IMG/VR virus record: IMGVR_UViG_2579778989_000006
From: a virus
Taxonomy: Duplodnaviria; Heunggongvirae; Uroviricota; Caudoviricetes
Direction: 5' to 3' (one strand)
DNA: 10,019 bases
Under the pieces are notes generated by a model. It saw nothing but the letters and a program-made list of their open reading frames with translations. It searched no databases and was not told the origin of the DNA. The translations under genes and the position numbers were made by a program. This document shows, one piece after another, positions 766 to 6,293 of the stretch. Numbering within the stretch: position 1 is the first letter of the stretch; each line of letters begins with the position of its first letter.

Positions 766-1125
766 ATGCTCATAGATTTGGTTTTACCTTACCCGCCGAC
801 GGTGAACACTTACTGGCGACGCCGTGGCAGCACATATTTTATCTCGGAGGAGGGAAAGCGTTATCGCCGGGCTGTGGCGCTTATTGTTCGCCAGCAGCGG
901 CTGAAATTAAGCCTGTCCGGAAGGCTGGCGATAAAGGTGATTGCAGAGCCACCGGATAAGCGTCGTCGCGACCTGGACAATATCCTGAAAGCACCGCTGG
1001 ATGCGCTGACGCATGCGGGAGTGTTAATGGACGATGAGCAGTTTGATGAAATCAATATTGTACGTGGCCAGCCAGTATCAGGTGGACGGCTGGAGATAAA
1101 AATTACAGAGGTGGGGTGTGCATGA
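766..1125 (+). CDS. rusA: RusA-family crossover junction endodeoxyribonuclease (Holliday junction resolvase)
   Basis: 119-aa ORF; AAGAGGTGA Shine-Dalgarno 5-6 nt upstream of ATG 766. Sequence pattern LPYPPTVNTYW...RRRDLDNILKAPLDALTHAGVLMDDEQF...RGQPVSGGRLEIKITE matches the RusA fold signature (acidic DxD catalytic region, C-terminal GGRLEI). Position in the nin region upstream of Q is as expected. Confidence 0.85.
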   Translation: MLIDLVLPYPPTVNTYWRRRGSTYFISEEGKRYRRAVALIVRQQRLKLSLSGRLAIKVIAEPPDKRRRDLDNILKAPLDALTHAGVLMDDEQFDEINIVRGQPVSGGRLEIKITEVGCA

Positions 1126-1805
1126 ATAACCAGTATTTACAGTTTGTTCGTGAGCAACTCATGATTGCCACAGCGGATCTCAGTGGGTCGACAAAAGGCC
1201 AGCTGGAAGCCTGGCAGGAAAATGCCCTGTACGATACAGGGCGTTACAGACGCAAAAAAATTCGTTACCGCGATGAGGTAACCGGAAAAATGATCACGCG
1301 GGATAACCCACCGATCCCGGGTAAACAATCACTGGCGAAAGGCTCATCAATTGCGCTGGTCAGTCCGGTTGAGTTTGCAACATCATCGTGGCGGCGTGCC
1401 GTTCTGGAACTGGAAGAGCATCAGAAGGCGTGGTTACTGTGGTGCTACAGTGGAAATGTTTGCTGGGAAGATCAGGTCACCATAACACAGTGGGTATGGA
1501 GTGAGTTTAAGGCTCAATCCGGTACCAGAAAAATAGCGGGGAAAACGCAGGAACGCCTGAAGAGGTTGATCTGGCTGGCTGTACAGGATGTGAAGAGCGA
1601 GCTGGTCGGGCGTGAGACTTATGAACATCAGGCGTTGGCGGTGTTGATGGGAGTTGCTAAATCTACATGGACAACAACACACAGGCCTCACTGGTTGGCT
1701 ATGCGGGGTAGTGCAGAGGGGCTGGACAGGGATGCGCTTATTTCAGTAATGCGGGTACGATCACGGCAACAGTCGCTTAATTTAGAACCATATCTTGCAA
1801 AATAG
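1122..1805 (+). CDS. Late-gene antitermination protein candidate (Q position); family not verified
   Basis: 227-aa ORF from ATG 1122 (track gives GTG 1116); GAGGTGG Shine-Dalgarno upstream; ATG overlaps the rusA stop (ATGA), implying translational coupling. Sits in the canonical Q slot: immediately after rusA and immediately before a promoter-like element and a strong intrinsic terminator. I do not see the lambda-Q zinc-finger motif, so the assignment is positional. Confidence 0.55.
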   Translation: MNNQYLQFVREQLMIATADLSGSTKGQLEAWQENALYDTGRYRRKKIRYRDEVTGKMITRDNPPIPGKQSLAKGSSIALVSPVEFATSSWRRAVLELEEHQKAWLLWCYSGNVCWEDQVTITQWVWSEFKAQSGTRKIAGKTQERLKRLIWLAVQDVKSELVGRETYEHQALAVLMGVAKSTWTTTHRPHWLAMRGSAEGLDRDALISVMRVRSRQQSLNLEPYLAK

Positions 1806-1823
1806 AACTGAAGAGCATATATT
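1795..1823 (+). promoter_or_regulatory. Candidate late promoter (pR'-like): -35 TTGCAA, 17-bp spacer, -10 TATATT
   Basis: TTGCAA at 1795-1800, TATATT at 1818-1823, 17-nt spacer; located at the 3' end of the Q-position gene and ~50 bp upstream of a strong terminator, as for lambdoid pR'/tR'. Confidence 0.35.
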
Positions 1824-1872
1824 TCGTGTAAATCTGATATTTCGCCGATTTTATACGCGATGGCAAAGTAAG

Positions 1873-1900
1873 AAAAAACCGCCGCCAGGCGGTTTTTTTA
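1873..1900 (+). terminator. Rho-independent terminator (tR'-like), potentially bidirectional
   Basis: AACCGCC (1877-1883), loop GCCA, GGCGGTT (1888-1894): a perfect 7-bp GC-rich stem followed by a run of seven T; preceded by an A-tract. Confidence 0.7.
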
Positions 1901-2019
1901 TGCCCAAAATCGCGTCAGTACAGTAAACGCGCTGGTGGTTGCGAATACGGGTCTTTCAGCTTGCTGGCTTTTTCGACAAGAGTTATTGGTATGTCATGTT
2001 AACCAGAAGGGAAAAAGAC

Positions 2020-2223
2020 ATGCTAAAACAGCAAGATATGACAGAAACCGCCGCCGCAGTCCTTCATTTCTTACCTGCTGACAAGTGGGTAACGCCACGT
2101 ATGATGACGAGAACTACCGGAGTAAGCGAAGCCCGGTGCCAGTTAATACTGACTCAGTTAGTTCTGGCGGGTCTGGCGAAGGATAACGGCGGGTACGGGA
2201 ATAAATTCAGACGCTGCCAGTAA
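2020..2223 (+). CDS. Hypothetical small protein (67 aa) downstream of tR'
   Basis: Track ORF 1939-2223 would run through the terminator, so the start is more plausibly ATG 2020 (AGAAGGGA Shine-Dalgarno 8-10 nt upstream) or ATG 1996. Product MLKQQDMTETAAAVLHFLPADKWVTPRMMTRTTGVSEARCQLILTQLVLAGLAKDNGGYGNKFRRCQ; possible winged-helix-like small protein, not recognised. Confidence 0.4.
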   Translation: MLKQQDMTETAAAVLHFLPADKWVTPRMMTRTTGVSEARCQLILTQLVLAGLAKDNGGYGNKFRRCQ

Positions 2224-2342: not shown

Positions 2343-2780
2343 GTGAGCCTACCAGAGTTACGCTTACTGATCCATGAAAATACTGTAAAAATAAACAGTG
2401 TTGATTTAATCAACGCTGATTGCCTGCATTTTATTCAGTCCCTGCCTGATGATTCCATTGACCTGATTGTTACCGATCCGCCGTATTTCAAAGTGAAACC
2501 CGAGGGCTGGGACAATCAGTGGAAGGGCGACGATGATTACCTGAAGTGGCTGGACCAGTGTCTGGCTCAGTTCTGGCGGGAGCTGAAACCTGCTGGAAGT
2601 CTTTACCTGTTCTGTGGACATCGCCTGGCATCTGATATTGAAATCGTGATGCGTAAACGTTTTAATGTGCTGAACCATATCATATGGGCGAAGCCGTTCA
2701 GACCTTGGAGCGCATGCTGTTGTTGCTCACTGGTATTACGAACGGTTTGCTCACGGGGATGTACACATATTAATTGTTGA
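2343..2780 (+). pseudogene. N6-adenine DNA methyltransferase, 5' remnant (truncated)
   Basis: N-terminal part has the catalytic motif IV DPPY (IDLIVTDPPYF) and conserved flanks (SVDLINADCLHFIQSLPDDS, LKPAGSLYLFCG), but the ORF ends after 145 codons in a Cys-rich tail (SACCCCSLVLRTVCSRGCTHINC) with no FxGxG AdoMet-binding motif. Base composition switches to strongly AT-rich at ~2765. Functional methylases of this class are roughly twice this length. Confidence 0.7.
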
Positions 2781-2788
2781 TGTTAATA

Positions 2789-3130
2789 TTACGTCATGTT
2801 ATTAATACAAAATTGCAACGCATCATTCAAAGTATTATAATTATCATTTGTTGCATTTATTATGCCAACATTCCTTGTTGGTCTTCCTTCCGTTGAATAT
2901 TCTATCCAGAATGAGCCGGTGTATTTTGACATTCTATATGTTGCGAATTCTTTTGCATTAATTGGTGGTTTGGTGCCGTTGAGATCCAATATATAACCAC
3001 TTTCTTGAATTGTCTTAGAAAGGCAATTGATTATTTCATTTGTCGATATTTCACTGTCGATTTGAGGATGATTCACAATTAGCCCCATGCAGAGGATGCT
3101 TGAAATTATTATAAAAATATTTTTTATCAT
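2789..3130 (-). CDS. Hypothetical 113-aa protein with N-terminal signal peptide or membrane anchor, on an AT-rich island
   Basis: Minus-strand ORF in a markedly AT-rich segment. N-terminus MIKNIFIIISSILCMGLIVNHP is a hydrophobic signal or anchor sequence; mature part is Asn/Thr/Ile-rich with two Cys (possible disulfide). Opposite orientation to the surrounding phage late genes; no strong Shine-Dalgarno. Not recognised as any known family. Confidence 0.55.
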   Translation of the reverse strand: MIKNIFIIISSILCMGLIVNHPQIDSEISTNEIINCLSKTIQESGYILDLNGTKPPINAKEFATYRMSKYTGSFWIEYSTEGRPTRNVGIINATNDNYNTLNDALQFCINNMT

Positions 3131-3402
3131 GATGTCTGTTTTTGTGAACTTTTAGATAGAATGTCTGCTGTGGAGATATGTATACCTCTTGTGCTCATTT
3201 ATTTCAATAGATAGTTGAGCACTCATTGTGCTAATGGAAGAAGTTTTTTAATATGGAGTATCATCAAAATCACACAATAGTGATTAATATTGCTATTAGA
3301 TAAAGAAGTATCGCTAACTTTGATTTTGTTGAATTTGTTTTTAATAAAAGTTAGTGTGGTTTATATAGCAGGCATATGCATGCTGTTTTTAAAGAAACTT
3401 AT

Positions 3403-3477
3403 TGCCCCTTTAGCCCTAATGGTCAGAGCGAGAGGTTAATAACCGCCAGGTCGCCGGTTCAAACATGGCAGGGGCAC
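3403..3477 (+). tRNA. tRNA-like element, probably a degenerate tRNA pseudogene (tRNA-Ile2/LAU-like body)
   Basis: Perfect 7-bp acceptor stem (TGCCCCT 3403-3409 with AGGGGCA 3470-3476) and a TTCAAAC T-loop, but the D stem and anticodon stem have multiple mismatches, the anticodon loop is TTAATAA, and no CCA is encoded (CGAA follows). Overall resembles the E. coli tRNA-Ile(LAU) gene as I recall it. Confidence 0.35.
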
Positions 3478-3480
3478 GAA

Positions 3481-3557
3481 GCGCTGTTAGCTCAGTTGGA
3501 CAGAGCAATTGCCTTCTAAGCAATCGGTCACTGGTTCGAATCCAGTATGGCGCACCA
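3481..3557 (+). tRNA. tRNA-Arg (anticodon UCU)
   Basis: Manual cloverleaf: acceptor GCGCTGT/ATGGCGC (two G-U pairs), D arm GCTC-AGTTGGACA-GAGC, anticodon arm ATTGC-CTTCTAA-GCAAT (anticodon TCT), variable loop CGGTC, T arm ACTGG-TTCGAAT-CCAGT, discriminator A and encoded CCA. 77 nt. Confidence 0.85.
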
Positions 3558-3558
3558 T

Positions 3559-3633
<75 letters not shown>

Positions 3634-4110
3634 TAGAGGATTATGGGACAGTATAGTGAGCATTTTTCTGCGTTACTTTTCATCGGTAAAAATAAGCATA
3701 CAACAACTATTTATGCTGGCATTAGCTATGATAGTTATTGGTTTTCTCGGAATGTGTTTATTTGTTTACTATATTCTTATCGATAACTGATATTTTTGAT
3801 ATGAATACGGAGTGGTACAAACAAAAATATGAATTCGCTATGGAATCAGGATGTGTAATAAAAATAATAGTCACTAAGTTATAGTTTTTTTTAAAATGTT
3901 AAAAACATCACATTTCATTATGTTGGGCACTGGAGAATACCCAGTCGTTTTGTTAAAAATAATTACGCATGGTGAATCCCCCTAAGCGGAGGGGCAATCA
4001 GCAACTGGTGTTTTGTCACCGACCCTTATCCTTTCTGTGCGGGTTCAGGTGCTGATACTGAACTCACCGGGAGGCACCCGGCACCATGCAAAATTGTCTA
4101 CACTACCACT

Positions 4111-4140
4111 GTAAAAAGCCCCTCTCCGGAGGGGCTTTTC
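4111..4140. terminator. Bidirectional rho-independent terminator hairpin
   Basis: GCCCCTC (4118-4124), loop TCCG, GAGGGGC (4129-4135); A-tract upstream (4113-4117) and T-tract downstream (4136-4139). Confidence 0.6.
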
Positions 4141-4239
4141 TATGGGCAAAAAAAAGCCCGCAGTGAGTGGCGGGCGGGTCGCATGAATATACATCAGGTA
4201 TTTTTATTATCGTGTTCTGATTTTTACCATCTGTGATAA

Positions 4240-4265: not shown

Positions 4266-4358
4266 GTTTTGCGGGCTGCGGTTCTCCTCTTTTGATTCTC
4301 CGTGTAGCCGGACCGTGGCCCGCAACTGTTGAGGAAAATCCCGGAAAGGGGAGGAATA

Positions 4359-6293
4359 ATGGCATTTAAACACTATGACGTGGTCAGGGCGGCGTCGCCG
4401 TCAGACCTTGCGGAGCGACTGACACAAAAACTGAAGGAAGGCTGGCAGCCGTTTGGCAGTCCTGTGGCTATCACGCCTTATACACTGATGCAGGCCATTG
4501 CCGCAGAGGGTGATGTGACCACGCCTGTGGTTGTGCCCGACACAGGGGCTGGTGGCTCTCCGGGAGTGGCTACCACTGAACCGGAGTATTACTACGTTAT
4601 TCCCCTGGCCGGGCAGTCGAACGGTATGGCCTATGGTGAGGGGCTTCCTCTGCCGGAGACCTATGATCGCCCTGACTCCCGTATTAAGCAGCTGGCCCGT
4701 CGCAGCACTGTGACGCCGGGTGGTGATACCTGTGCATACAATGACGTTATTCCGGCAGACCACTGTCTGCATGATGTTCAGGACATGAGCGCACTTAACC
4801 ATCCTCATGCAGACCTGAGTAAGGGCCAGTACGGGACTGTCGGTCAGGGGCTGCATATTGCCAAAAAACTGCTGCCTTATATCCCGCAGAATGCCGGGAT
4901 TCTTCTGGTGCCCTGTTGCCGTGGCGGGTCTGGTTTAACCGTGGGTAATGACGGCACGTTCAGCGAAACGTCTGGCGCATCGGCAAATTCAGCCCGCTGG
5001 GGAGTGGGTAAACCGCTGTATCAGGATTTTCTCTTCCGTACAAAAGCGGCGCTGTCGAAGAACCCGAAAAACAGGCTTCTGGCCGTGGTATGGATGCAGG
5101 GGGAAAATGATCTTGCGGACGGCAGTCAGCAGCACAGCGGCCTGTTTACCACTATGGTGCAGCAGTTCAGGGCTGATATGGCTGCATATTCTGCACAGTG
5201 TGTTGGCGGAAGTGCTGGCTCGGTGCCGTGGATTTGTGGTGACACCACGTATTACTGGAAGAATCTTAACGCCGATAAATATGAGGCGGTATATGGCGGT
5301 TACAAGGGCAGGGAAGCACAGAATATTTTCTTTGTTCCTTTTATGACGGACAGCAGTGGTGCAAACACACCCACCAACAATCCGTCAGAAGACCCGGATA
5401 TTCCGGCATCAGGATATTACGGTGCAGCTTCCCGGACGTCGGCAAACTGGACGTCAGCAGACCGTGCGAGCCATTTCAGCTCATGGGCACGCAGGGGGAT
5501 TATCTCTGACCGTCTGGCCTCAGCGATTCTTCTCCATGCAGGACGAACGGCTGAACTGGTGGGGGGACAGGTTGTGACGCCGCCGGATGAGAAGCCGTCA
5601 CCGGACACACCACCAACACCGTCAACGGACGGGAAATCAGTGACAACGCTGCTTTCTTACCGTGCAGCAGAGTCAGATGGTTTACTGACTCCGCAGGGAT
5701 GGGGAGCTGAAGGAGGGAGTGCAGCGGTAGTTGATGATGCAGGTGCTGCGGGAGGTAAGGCGCTGAGGCTGACCAAACAGGCAGGAAGGTCTTCGTGGTT
5801 TATGCAGCATGATGCCGGTAATGGCGCAGACCTTCTGGAGAAAGGCGGGCTTATCAGCTGTCGTTTTAAAGTTGATGGTGTGCTGTCTGCTAACCGTTAT
5901 GCACTGGCGCTGTACTGGCCGGTTTCTTCATTGCCTCAGGGTGTCACACTGGAAGGTAATGCCGGTAACAATCTGCTGGCGTCGTTTTACGTACAGAGCG
6001 ATGCCACAGACCTCAACGTGATGTACCACAAGGGTAACGCTGACCAGAACACGAAGCTGGGGTCATTCGGCGCATTTGACAACGAATGGCATACGCTGGG
6101 CTTCCGTTTTGCCGGTAATAACAGCATTCAGGTGACGCCGGTGATTGATGGTCAGGATGGTGCACCGTTCATGCTGTCGCAGTCTCCGGTAGGTTCTTTT
6201 GCGGCAGACAAATTACGTGTAACGGATATCACAAAAGCGGCGACGTATACGGTGCTGATTGAAAGTATAACAGTGGAAGTGAATAACCCGTAA
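4359..6293 (+). CDS. nanS-p: Prophage-encoded sialate O-acetylesterase (NanS-p type): DUF1737-like N-terminus, SGNH/SASA esterase domain, C-terminal beta-rich domain
   Basis: Track ORF 4329-6293; preferred start ATG 4359 (GGGGAGGA Shine-Dalgarno 5-8 nt upstream). N-terminus MAFKHYDVVRAASPSDLAERL...GWQPFGSPV is the DUF1737-type module; YYVIPLAGQSNGMAYGEG holds the GQSN catalytic-serine block of SGNH esterases; a Pro/Thr-rich linker (PPDEKPSPDTPPTPSTDGK) precedes a C-terminal ~200-aa domain. Location downstream of the phage tRNA array matches nanS-p genes of EHEC Stx prophages. Confidence 0.85.
   Translation: MAFKHYDVVRAASPSDLAERLTQKLKEGWQPFGSPVAITPYTLMQAIAAEGDVTTPVVVPDTGAGGSPGVATTEPEYYYVIPLAGQSNGMAYGEGLPLPETYDRPDSRIKQLARRSTVTPGGDTCAYNDVIPADHCLHDVQDMSALNHPHADLSKGQYGTVGQGLHIAKKLLPYIPQNAGILLVPCCRGGSGLTVGNDGTFSETSGASANSARWGVGKPLYQDFLFRTKAALSKNPKNRLLAVVWMQGENDLADGSQQHSGLFTTMVQQFRADMAAYSAQCVGGSAGSVPWICGDTTYYWKNLNADKYEAVYGGYKGREAQNIFFVPFMTDSSGANTPTNNPSEDPDIPASGYYGAASRTSANWTSADRASHFSSWARRGIISDRLASAILLHAGRTAELVGGQVVTPPDEKPSPDTPPTPSTDGKSVTTLLSYRAAESDGLLTPQGWGAEGGSAAVVDDAGAAGGKALRLTKQAGRSSWFMQHDAGNGADLLEKGGLISCRFKVDGVLSANRYALALYWPVSSLPQGVTLEGNAGNNLLASFYVQSDATDLNVMYHKGNADQNTKLGSFGAFDNEWHTLGFRFAGNNSIQVTPVIDGQDGAPFMLSQSPVGSFAADKLRVTDITKAATYTVLIESITVEVNNP

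What the first reader, a model, noticed from the sequence alone, without database searches (positions are those of the whole stretch)
2343..2780. Methyltransferase remnant retaining the DPPY catalytic motif but lacking the AdoMet-binding half
The ORF keeps the N-terminal target-recognition and motif IV region of an N6-adenine methyltransferase and then runs into a Cys-rich nonsense tail and stops exactly where the AT-rich island begins. This marks the left junction of the island insertion or replacement and implies loss of the phage-encoded methylase that normally accompanies this module.
Basis: partly seen in the sequence, partly recalled or inferred. Interest (0 to 1): 0.4.

Follow-up and report, generated by a model that had tools for sequence, protein, structure and literature searches.

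The report
Dead prophage adenine methyltransferase gene stub
This is the broken front third of a common prophage DNA adenine methyltransferase gene (the M.EcoGII family) whose rear two thirds were replaced by unrelated AT-rich DNA; it is an ordinary pseudogene that NCBI's annotation already flags.

Summary
ORF 2343-2780 carries codons 2-115 of a beta-class N6-adenine DNA methyltransferase, with DPPY at 2475-2486. It is 84% identical to residues 3-115 of M.EcoGII and 87-89% identical to full-length 349-352 aa prophage copies. Homology stops between 2698 and 2720. The rest of the ORF is read-through into unrelated DNA. No other piece of the enzyme (central target-recognition domain, C-terminal FxGxG AdoMet motif) exists in any frame of the window. 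This is therefore a replacement or deletion, not a frameshift.

The A5 run after the native ATG (2374) is A4 here, so the native start is out of frame and GTG 2343 is a fortuitous start in the former 5' leader.

The window is E. coli JKHS016 (100% identity). PGAP already annotates 2370-2717 as "DNA-methyltransferase, incomplete, missing C-terminus".

The family is in 2651 of 5426 complete E. coli genomes, nearly always full length. This junction occurs in only about 9 genomes.

The AT-rich island (about 2718-3403, 31.5% GC) carries a reverse-strand 113-aa secreted-type orphan gene, next to a decayed tRNA-Ile.

The parts
1116..1805 (+). Antiterminator Q gene (context: the methyltransferase lies in the Q-dependent late transcript)
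   Evidence: Pfam PF06323 E=2e-87; PGAP 'bacteriophage antitermination protein Q'
1795..1900 (+). pR'-like promoter (1795-1823) and tR'-like hairpin plus T-run (1881-1893 and following); consensus matches only
   Evidence: SfV has an annotated terminator at the equivalent place between Q and orf47
2020..2223 (+). Small conserved ORF that precedes the methyltransferase in this module (67 aa, intact here)
   Evidence: PGAP CDS WP_000917724.1; phrog_331 E=4.7e-28; same position as SfV orf47
2343..2375 (+). Eleven codons of former 5' leader, in frame with the remnant only because of the 1-nt deletion; GTG 2343 is a fortuitous start
   Evidence: Alignments with full-length genes and with the Res13 remnant, which have ATG-AAA-AAT
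2374..2380 (+). Native ATG (2374-2376), now out of frame, followed by an A4 run (2377-2380) where intact genes have A5; from this ATG the reading frame stops after 4 codons
   Evidence: The identical 145-aa product is present in three other NCBI assemblies, so this is a real mutation and not an assembly error
2376..2717 (+). Methyltransferase-homologous codons (aa 2-115 of the 349-aa enzyme): the first part of the Rossmann catalytic domain, including motif IV DPPY at 2475-2486
   Evidence: tblastn E=2e-70; 84% identity to M.EcoGII residues 3-115; PGAP pseudogene 2370-2717
2698..2720 (.). Junction zone. Methyltransferase homology degrades from 2698 and ends by 2717. Homology to the island as found in other loci begins at 2721
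   Evidence: codons 109-115 are only 62-71% identical at nucleotide level, against 81-100% among full-length alleles
2718..2780 (+). Cys-rich tail: read-through of the remnant's frame into island DNA, ending at TGA 2778-2780
2718..3403 (.). AT-rich replacement segment (31.5% GC for 2721-3403, against 49.9% for the rest of the window), unrelated to the methyltransferase 3' part and spacer that it replaces
   Evidence: Best local alignment with the replaced segment of L003 scores 16, against a shuffled mean of 13.6 and maximum of 19
2789..3130 (-). Island cargo gene: 113-aa protein with a hydrophobic N-terminus and two invariant Cys; Escherichia-only orphan family
   Evidence: No Pfam, NCBIfam or PHROG hit. 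PGAP CDS
3404..3476 (+). Decayed tRNA-Ile(CAT) gene. Homology with methyltransferase-intact prophages resumes here
   Evidence: About 85% identical to the intact tRNA of LZHX12, with the anticodon changed and arm mismatches. Not called by ARAGORN or by Rfam at E<=0.1
3481..3633 (+). tRNA-Arg(TCT) 3481-3557 and tRNA-Gly(TCC) 3559-3633, the conserved right-hand anchor of the variable region

Best explanation
The ORF is a non-functional pseudogene. It descends from the late-operon DNA adenine methyltransferase that many lambdoid E. coli prophages carry between Q/pR' and the tRNA/lysis genes. That enzyme belongs to the M.EcoGII family: beta class, 349 aa, with the order DPPY, central TRD, C-terminal FxGxG.

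Two lesions inactivate it.

1. Everything after codon ~115, plus the spacer up to the tRNA cluster (about 1 kb in an intact relative), has been replaced. In its place is ~690 bp of unrelated AT-rich DNA carrying a reverse-oriented small gene. The frame therefore reads 21 codons into foreign DNA and stops.
2. One A has been lost from the A5 run just after the native ATG, so the native start is out of frame.

What remains is only part of the first half of the Rossmann catalytic domain. It has no SAM-binding motif and no DNA-recognition domain, so it cannot methylate DNA.

These points are shown: homology, breakpoint, absence of the rest of the gene, the second lesion, the rarity of the junction, and the same junction in independent genomes.

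These points are inferred. The junction most likely arose by one illegitimate deletion or recombination in an ancestor that had a full methyltransferase followed by a tRNA set and the cargo gene, an architecture that exists in locus L009. It then spread between prophages by homologous recombination through the conserved flanks. The remnant is probably still transcribed as a passive part of the late transcript, without a function of its own.
For: - **Identity of the gene.** Pfam, PHROG and NCBIfam hits cover only the N-terminal part of the profiles. Residues 3-115 of M.EcoGII are 84% identical to the remnant. Full-length relatives are 349-352 aa with FFMGSGST near residue 306-313. PDB relatives (RsrI, MboIIA, CcrM and others) match the full-length protein in two separate blocks, N-terminal and C-terminal.
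- **Missing part.** Only aa 2-115 are found in the window, in any of the six frames. A three-frame translation past 2717 shows no continuation. The island is unrelated to the replaced segment.
- **Second lesion.** The window has A4 where all intact genes and the Res13 remnant have A5. The exact 145-aa product recurs in three other assemblies.
- **Relaxed constraint.** There are 7-8 remnant-specific amino-acid replacements at sites invariant in five diverse full-length alleles. dN/dS is 0.135 against full-length genes, versus 0.022 between two full-length genes.
- **Population.** The family is in 2651 of 5426 complete E. coli genomes, and 2591 have a copy covering at least 80% of the gene. The island junction region is in 9 of 5426.
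- **Same junction elsewhere.** It occurs behind three different Q modules (JKHS016 and Res13, ST866, OkiPb01678). ST866 and OkiPb01678 have lost the gene's 5' part as well.
- **Existing annotation.** PGAP already calls 2370-2717 'incomplete, missing C-terminus'.
- **Ancestor-like architecture.** L009 has the order Q, small ORF, intact 352-aa methyltransferase, tRNA set, DUF3927, cargo homolog (reverse), second tRNA set.
Against: - Nothing here contradicts pseudogene status. Expression and activity were not and cannot be tested with these tools.
- dN/dS is still well below 1 and rests on few substitutions (about 12 non-synonymous). Part of the divergence may come from an unsampled divergent functional allele rather than from decay.
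- The single-deletion scenario is only a plausible model. The L009 cargo allele is just 70% identical at the nucleotide level, and the 2721-2760 stretch of the island is not alignable there.
- Codons 109-115 are unusually diverged, so the exact breakpoint is uncertain within about 20 nt.
Confidence: 0.9

Rival explanations
1. The gene is intact but split by a frameshift or sequencing error, so the AdoMet-binding half lies downstream in another frame.
For: A 1-nt homopolymer difference does exist at the 5' end. PHROGs holds separate families for the N-half (phrog_6025) and the C-half (phrog_6952) of this enzyme, so split gene calls do occur in phage genomes.
Against: tblastn with word size 2 and E<=10 finds no C-terminal piece in any frame of the 10-kb window. 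The three forward frames after 2717 show no continuation. DNA homology to full-length genes ends at 2698-2717 and resumes only at the tRNA-Ile relic at 3404. The same junction is present in at least four other complete genomes.
Confidence: 0.01
2. The short DPPY-only protein is a functional product in its own right. For example, it could be a dominant-negative or regulatory partner of full-length M.EcoGII-type enzymes from co-resident prophages; AlphaFold2 multimer modelling in PMC11551740 represents those enzymes as homodimers.
For: The open frame is kept in JKHS016, in Res13 and in three draft assemblies. It lies in the late transcript downstream of a pR'-like promoter. dN/dS remains below 1.
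Against: - It is found in very few genomes; the junction is in 9 of 5426, and only two of the complete genomes examined keep the N-terminal part.
- The native start is destroyed in one lineage and the whole 5' part is deleted in another.
- Replacements have accumulated at otherwise invariant positions.
- The fragment is about half of a Rossmann sheet plus a tail translated from non-coding DNA.
- The 857-member 90% cluster around the 135-aa form consists of contig-end 'partial' fragments of the full gene, not a short family.
Confidence: 0.03
3. A discrete mobile element inserted into the methyltransferase gene (a simple insertion), and the AT-rich island has a defined left terminus.
For: In MFDS1022581-type loci, the same island at 86% identity starts at window position ~2721 directly against an unrelated integrase remnant. 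That is a second, independent left junction within 10 nt of the methyltransferase junction. The composition is foreign.
Against: - The distal part of the methyltransferase is not on the other side of the island, so this is not a simple insertion.
- No transposase, recombinase, terminal inverted repeat or target duplication was seen. Repeats were not searched for exhaustively.
- More diverged copies of the island lose homology at 2760 or 2783 rather than at a fixed end.
- With two independent left-hand deletions observed (ST866 type ending at ~2590, MFDS type at ~2720), one falling within 10 nt of the junction has a chance probability of roughly 5%.
Confidence: 0.06

Closest known systems
[quoted passage not shown]
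   Same: The remnant is 84% identical to M.EcoGII residues 3-115, including DPPY. The full-length relatives used here have the same length (349-352 aa), the same beta-class order (DPPY, central TRD, C-terminal FxGxG), and the same prophage setting.
   Different: Only residues 2-115 remain. The TRD (160-237) and the second half of the catalytic domain (260-349, with FxGxG) are gone, and the start codon is out of frame. Non-specific activity has been shown only for M.EcoGII itself, not for the alleles compared here.
Intact orthologs in phage SfV (orf48), phage 1720a-02, cdtI, mEp460, phiP27, Stx2c and Stx2a phages, and the E. coli LZHX12 prophage
   Same: Same module order in the loci inspected (SfV, 1720a-02, LZHX12): Q, terminator, small ORF, methyltransferase, then tRNAs, toxin or lysis genes. 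Identity over the retained part is 84-89.5% at the protein level.
   Different: Those inspected (SfV, 1720a-02, LZHX12, one Stx2c phage) are full length. The window copy is truncated and followed by an AT-rich cargo segment.
NCBI PGAP pseudogene WAZ83_RS11320 in E. coli JKHS016 (NZ_CP147059.1), and the equivalent pseudogenes in Res13-Lact-PEA12-26, ST866 and OkiPb01678
   Same: This is the same sequence. It is annotated 'DNA-methyltransferase; incomplete; partial in the middle of a contig; missing C-terminus', corresponding to window 2370-2717.
   Different: The annotation does not mention the start-codon frameshift, the family (M.EcoGII type) or the nature of the replacing DNA.
Morons (independently acquired cargo genes) in the variable region between Q and the lysis genes of lambdoid prophages; a general concept taken from my own knowledge of the lambdoid phage literature
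   Same: An AT-rich segment with a single gene on the opposite strand to late transcription. It is variably present among otherwise related prophages, at a spot where other prophages carry TerB, DUF3927, TrmB-type or PmrD-like genes.
   Different: Here acquisition or rearrangement of the cargo came at the cost of the neighbouring methyltransferase gene. The cargo's own promoter and terminator are not established; the consensus scan is no better than chance.

Membership tests
Beta-class N6/N4 amino DNA methyltransferase, M.EcoGII family (PF01555) | Catalytic motif IV (DPPY) near the N-terminus | tested here: met
   DPPY at 2475-2486, ORF residues 45-48
Beta-class N6/N4 amino DNA methyltransferase, M.EcoGII family (PF01555) | Sequence homology to characterised members | tested here: met
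   84% identity to M.EcoGII residues 3-115; Pfam E=3.4e-14; tblastn E=2e-70 against a full-length homolog
Beta-class N6/N4 amino DNA methyltransferase, M.EcoGII family (PF01555) | AdoMet-binding motif I (FxGxG; FFMGSGST at about residue 306-313 of full-length copies) | tested here: not met
   Absent from the ORF and from all six frames of the window. The Pfam match covers only profile positions 1-85 of 221
Beta-class N6/N4 amino DNA methyltransferase, M.EcoGII family (PF01555) | Central target-recognition domain (M.EcoGII residues 160-237, PMC11551740) | tested here: not met
   Homology ends at residue ~115
Beta-class N6/N4 amino DNA methyltransferase, M.EcoGII family (PF01555) | Complete reading frame of about 349 aa from the native ATG | tested here: not met
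   114 homologous codons only. The native ATG at 2374 is out of frame because of the A5-to-A4 change
Beta-class N6/N4 amino DNA methyltransferase, M.EcoGII family (PF01555) | Genomic position: late operon downstream of Q/pR' and a small conserved ORF, upstream of tRNA and lysis genes | tested here: met
   Same order as in SfV, 1720a-02, LZHX12 and L009
Beta-class N6/N4 amino DNA methyltransferase, M.EcoGII family (PF01555) | DNA adenine methylation activity | not testable with these tools
   Requires biochemistry or methylome sequencing. Predicted to be absent because motif I and the TRD are missing
   The junction is in 9 of 5426 genomes, and 98% of carrier genomes have a near full-length copy. 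The exact 145-aa product is on 3 contigs. The 857-member cluster around the 135-aa form is made of 'partial' contig-end fragments. phrog_6025 (the N-half family) spans 192 positions and the remnant covers only 2-123
Prophage moron / horizontally acquired cargo island (for 2718-3403) | Composition unlike the flanks, and variable presence among related prophages | tested here: met
   31.5% against 49.9% GC. Absent from LZHX12, SfV and 1720a-02; present in 9 of 5426 genomes
Prophage moron / horizontally acquired cargo island (for 2718-3403) | Own gene with its own transcription signals | tested here: inconclusive
   The gene is real: a family of 10 clusters at 60-98% identity, with 46 invariant columns. 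Promoter-like and terminator-like hits are not above shuffled expectation

The most novel reading that the evidence does not exclude
The AT-rich segment (cargo gene plus tRNA relic) may be a discrete cassette with a fixed left terminus at about 2718-2721 that joins to unrelated DNA. It joins the methyltransferase interior here and an integrase interior in MFDS1022581-type loci. That would point to an unrecognised end-specific recombination mechanism moving tRNA-linked cargo between prophages, with the methyltransferase stub as its scar.
Probability: 0.05. Interest if true: 0.35.

Novelty: already known. Interest (0 to 1): 0.08.

Why it matters
It matters little beyond correct annotation. It records that this prophage has lost its late-expressed M.EcoGII-type adenine methyltransferase. 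That enzyme is thought to be switched on at induction, and its non-specific methylation would blunt restriction in new hosts (PMC5778455), so progeny phage from this element would lack that protection. The locus also illustrates that the interval between Q and the tRNA genes of lambdoid prophages is a hot spot where cargo turnover can destroy neighbouring phage genes. Finally, gene callers will happily report a 145-aa 'DNA methylase family protein' that is in fact leader, gene stub and junk tail fused together.

Tried and rejected
- **Frameshift or hidden C-terminus.** tblastn at E<=10 and three-frame translation found nothing.
- **Similarity between the island and the segment it replaced.** None was found above shuffled controls.
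- **The Stx2c-phage copies, the closest protein matches to the remnant, as possible bearers of the same truncation.** Rejected: the copy inspected is full length.
- **Assembly error as the cause of the A4 run.** Rejected: the identical 145-aa product occurs in three other assemblies.
- **RNA elements inside 2343-2780.** Rfam found none at E<=0.1.
- **Literature on this methyltransferase as a described feature of the region downstream of Q.** The search returned nothing specific beyond the M.EcoGII papers.
- **The MFDS-type left junction as evidence of a defined island end.** It was left as an unexplained near-coincidence with a chance probability of about 5%.

Full report
**Where the window comes from.** The window is 100% identical to the chromosome of E. 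coli JKHS016 (NZ_CP147059.1). It covers the late-regulatory and lysis region of a lambdoid prophage:

- DUF968/HNH protein, 154-753
- RusA, 766-1125
- Antiterminator Q, 1116-1805
- A pR'-like promoter and tR'-like terminator, about 1795-1900
- A small conserved ORF, 2020-2223
- The ORF in question, 2343-2780
- An AT-rich stretch
- tRNA-Arg and tRNA-Gly, 3481-3633
- A SASA/DUF6645 esterase, 4329-6293
- Holin, lysozyme and Rz

The 145-aa ORF matches Pfam PF01555 (N6_N4_Mtase) at E=3.4e-14, but only over profile positions 1-85 of 221. It matches the PHROG methyltransferase families at E=9e-60. DPPY is encoded at 2475-2486.

Full-length relatives are 349-352 aa. They sit at the same place in phage SfV (orf48), phage 1720a-02, an Stx2c phage and the E. 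coli LZHX12 prophage. They carry DPPY at residues 35-38 and FFMGSGST at about 306-313.

The full-length protein matches solved beta-class enzymes (RsrI, MboIIA, CcrM, DpnA and others) in two blocks, one N-terminal and one C-terminal.

**Which family it belongs to.** This is the M.EcoGII family. Murray et al. (PMC5778455) describe M.EcoGII as a 349-aa prophage enzyme of the beta class, with an N-terminal DPPY, a central TRD and a C-terminal FxGxG. They name the 1720a-02 enzyme as very similar.

The M.EcoGII sequence is printed in a supplementary file of PMC11551740 (the text is machine-read and has at least one obvious reading error). It is 84% identical (95/113) to the remnant over residues 3-115.

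The same paper places the catalytic Rossmann domain at residues 1-134 plus 260-349 and the TRD at 160-237. The remnant therefore keeps only part of the first catalytic segment.

**The rest of the gene is absent, not frameshifted.** tblastn of a full-length homolog against the whole window, with permissive settings, returns only aa 2-115 at 2376-2717 (E=2e-70). Every other hit has E>=0.4.

None of the three forward frames beyond 2717 resembles the expected continuation NKESLRAYFPATER....

At the DNA level, identity to full-length genes is 90-96% up to about 2697 and falls to 62-71% in codons 109-115. It is lost by 2717. Homology to methyltransferase-intact prophages resumes only at 3404, the start of a decayed tRNA-Ile(CAT) gene.

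The intervening ~690 bp is 31.5% GC, against 49.9% for the rest of the window. It has no similarity to the ~1 kb it replaces in LZHX12 beyond shuffled controls.

The 22-residue Cys-rich tail is therefore read-through into foreign, non-coding DNA. That DNA is the 3' flank of a convergent gene whose stop lies 8 nt beyond the ORF's own stop.

Intact genes and the otherwise equivalent remnant in E. coli O157:H16 Res13 read ATG-AAA-AAT. The window has one A fewer (A4 at 2377-2380). From the native ATG at 2374 the frame therefore stops after four codons.

The mechanical ORF begins at an upstream GTG (2343), which happens to be in frame with the shifted body. Its first 11 codons are former leader.

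The identical 145-aa product is recorded from three other E. coli assemblies (KDA82090.1, KDT06633.1, KEM83743.1). The deletion is therefore a real mutation and not an assembly error.

**Population picture.**

- The methyltransferase gene is found in 2651 of 5426 complete E. coli genomes. In 2591 of them a copy spans at least 80% of the gene.
- The methyltransferase/island junction region occurs in only 9 of 5426 genomes.
- The same junction, at 98% identity, lies behind three different Q modules. JKHS016 and Res13 keep codons 1-115. ST866 and OkiPb01678 keep only about 45 codons, because a further deletion fused the small upstream ORF to codon ~75.
- In MFDS1022581-type loci a diverged copy of the island (86% identity) abuts an integrase remnant next to yccA, with no methyltransferase sequence at all.

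The region is thus decaying in several lineages. PGAP already annotates all these copies as incomplete methyltransferase pseudogenes.

The large 90%-identity cluster around the 135-aa form consists of "partial" proteins cut by contig ends. It is not a family of short proteins.

**Signs of relaxed constraint.**

- The remnant lineage carries V70E (window only), M92V, E95K, S109F, G110R, R111P, N113S and G114A. These positions are invariant in five full-length alleles that differ by up to 22% at the DNA level.
- dN/dS against full-length genes is 0.135, versus 0.022 between two full-length genes.
- The numbers are small. Part of the divergence (dS about 0.5 in codons 46-115) must predate inactivation or come from a divergent allele. 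This supports the pseudogene reading but does not prove it.

**How it probably arose (inference).** Locus L009 is an E. coli prophage with the order Q, small ORF, intact 352-aa methyltransferase, tRNA-Met/Ile(CAT) plus tRNA-Arg, DUF3927 gene, a 60%-identical homolog of the island's cargo gene on the opposite strand, and a second tRNA set.

In such an architecture, a single ~2-kb deletion would reproduce the window's layout. It would run from methyltransferase codon ~116 to just past the stop of the cargo gene. An illegitimate recombination that swapped in the cargo segment is equally compatible.

A simple insertion is excluded, because the distal part of the gene is not on the far side of the island. 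The junction then evidently spread by homologous recombination through the conserved flanks, since it sits behind unrelated Q genes.

**What the island carries.**

- The gene is a 113-aa protein on the reverse strand, with a hydrophobic N-terminus and two invariant cysteines.
- It belongs to an Escherichia-only family of ten 90% clusters at 60-98% identity, with 46 invariant columns.
- It has no hits in Pfam, NCBIfam or PHROGs.
- In all contexts seen, the gene lies just upstream of the prophage tRNA cluster and points against late transcription.
- Its function is unknown.

**Verdict.** This is a methyltransferase stub that marks the left edge of a replacement and signifies loss of the phage methylase. 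Three corrections apply:

1. No TRD is retained.
2. The breakpoint is about 60-80 nt before the stop.
3. There is an additional start-codon frameshift.

The feature is an ordinary, already annotated pseudogene of a well-characterised family, so interest is low. The only loose end is that two independent left junctions of the island lie within 10 nt of each other. That is about a 5% coincidence and gives at most weak support for a defined cassette end.

Noticed in passing
window 2789-3130 (-): The island cargo gene encodes a 113-aa protein with a hydrophobic N-terminus and two invariant Cys. It belongs to an Escherichia-only orphan family (10 clusters, 60-98% identity) and always sits next to the prophage tRNA cluster, opposite to late transcription. 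There is no family hit, and the AlphaFold2 model (pLDDT 67) gives no informative fold match.
   Followed up: partly
window 3404-3476 (+): A decayed tRNA-Ile(CAT) gene. It is about 85% identical to the intact tRNA of LZHX12 but has an altered anticodon (CAT to AAT) and broken arms. It is not called by ARAGORN or Rfam. L009 has intact CAT-anticodon tRNAs at the equivalent spots.
   Followed up: partly
window 2718-2721; L004 about 3997-4001: In MFDS1022581-type loci the island (86% identity) begins at window position ~2721 directly against a 171-nt integrase remnant beside yccA. This second, independent left junction lies within 10 nt of the methyltransferase/island junction. It may be coincidence (about 5%) or a hint of a defined cassette end.
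   Followed up: partly
window 3937-4147 (+): A strong Rfam match to the sRNA family STnc100 (140.8 bits, gathering score 47). It lies between the tRNAs and the esterase gene and overlaps a PGAP 'hypothetical protein, internal stop' pseudogene on the other strand (about 3966-4094).
   Followed up: no
window 2020-2223 (+): The small ORF (67 aa, phrog_331) that always precedes this methyltransferase is intact here even though the methyltransferase is dead. In other prophages a 'TrmB family transcriptional regulator' is annotated in the same Q-to-tRNA interval (not checked to be the same ORF). The small ORF might therefore be a DNA-binding controller of the toxic methyltransferase.
   Followed up: no
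L001 1447-3457 (JKHS016, about 0.7-2.8 kb upstream of the window start): The same prophage region carries a DNA cytosine methyltransferase plus an NgoMIV-family type II restriction endonuclease, flanked by QueH and an IS5 transposase. It therefore has a different methylation-based cargo even though it lost the M.EcoGII-type enzyme.
   Followed up: no
L005 and L006 2829-3118 (OkiPb01678, ST866): A further decay step of the same junction. A divergent allele of the small upstream ORF is fused to methyltransferase codon ~75, leaving only about 45 methyltransferase codons before the same island.
   Followed up: partly
PHROG library: PHROGs holds separate families for the N-terminal half (phrog_6025, 192 positions) and the C-terminal half (phrog_6952, 181 positions) of this methyltransferase. 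Split or truncated gene calls of this enzyme therefore recur among deposited phage genomes.
   Followed up: no
window 1867-1940 (-): A sub-threshold Rfam hit to the sRNA family STnc370 (41.3 bits, gathering score 54) overlaps the bidirectional hairpin of the tR'-like terminator.
   Followed up: no
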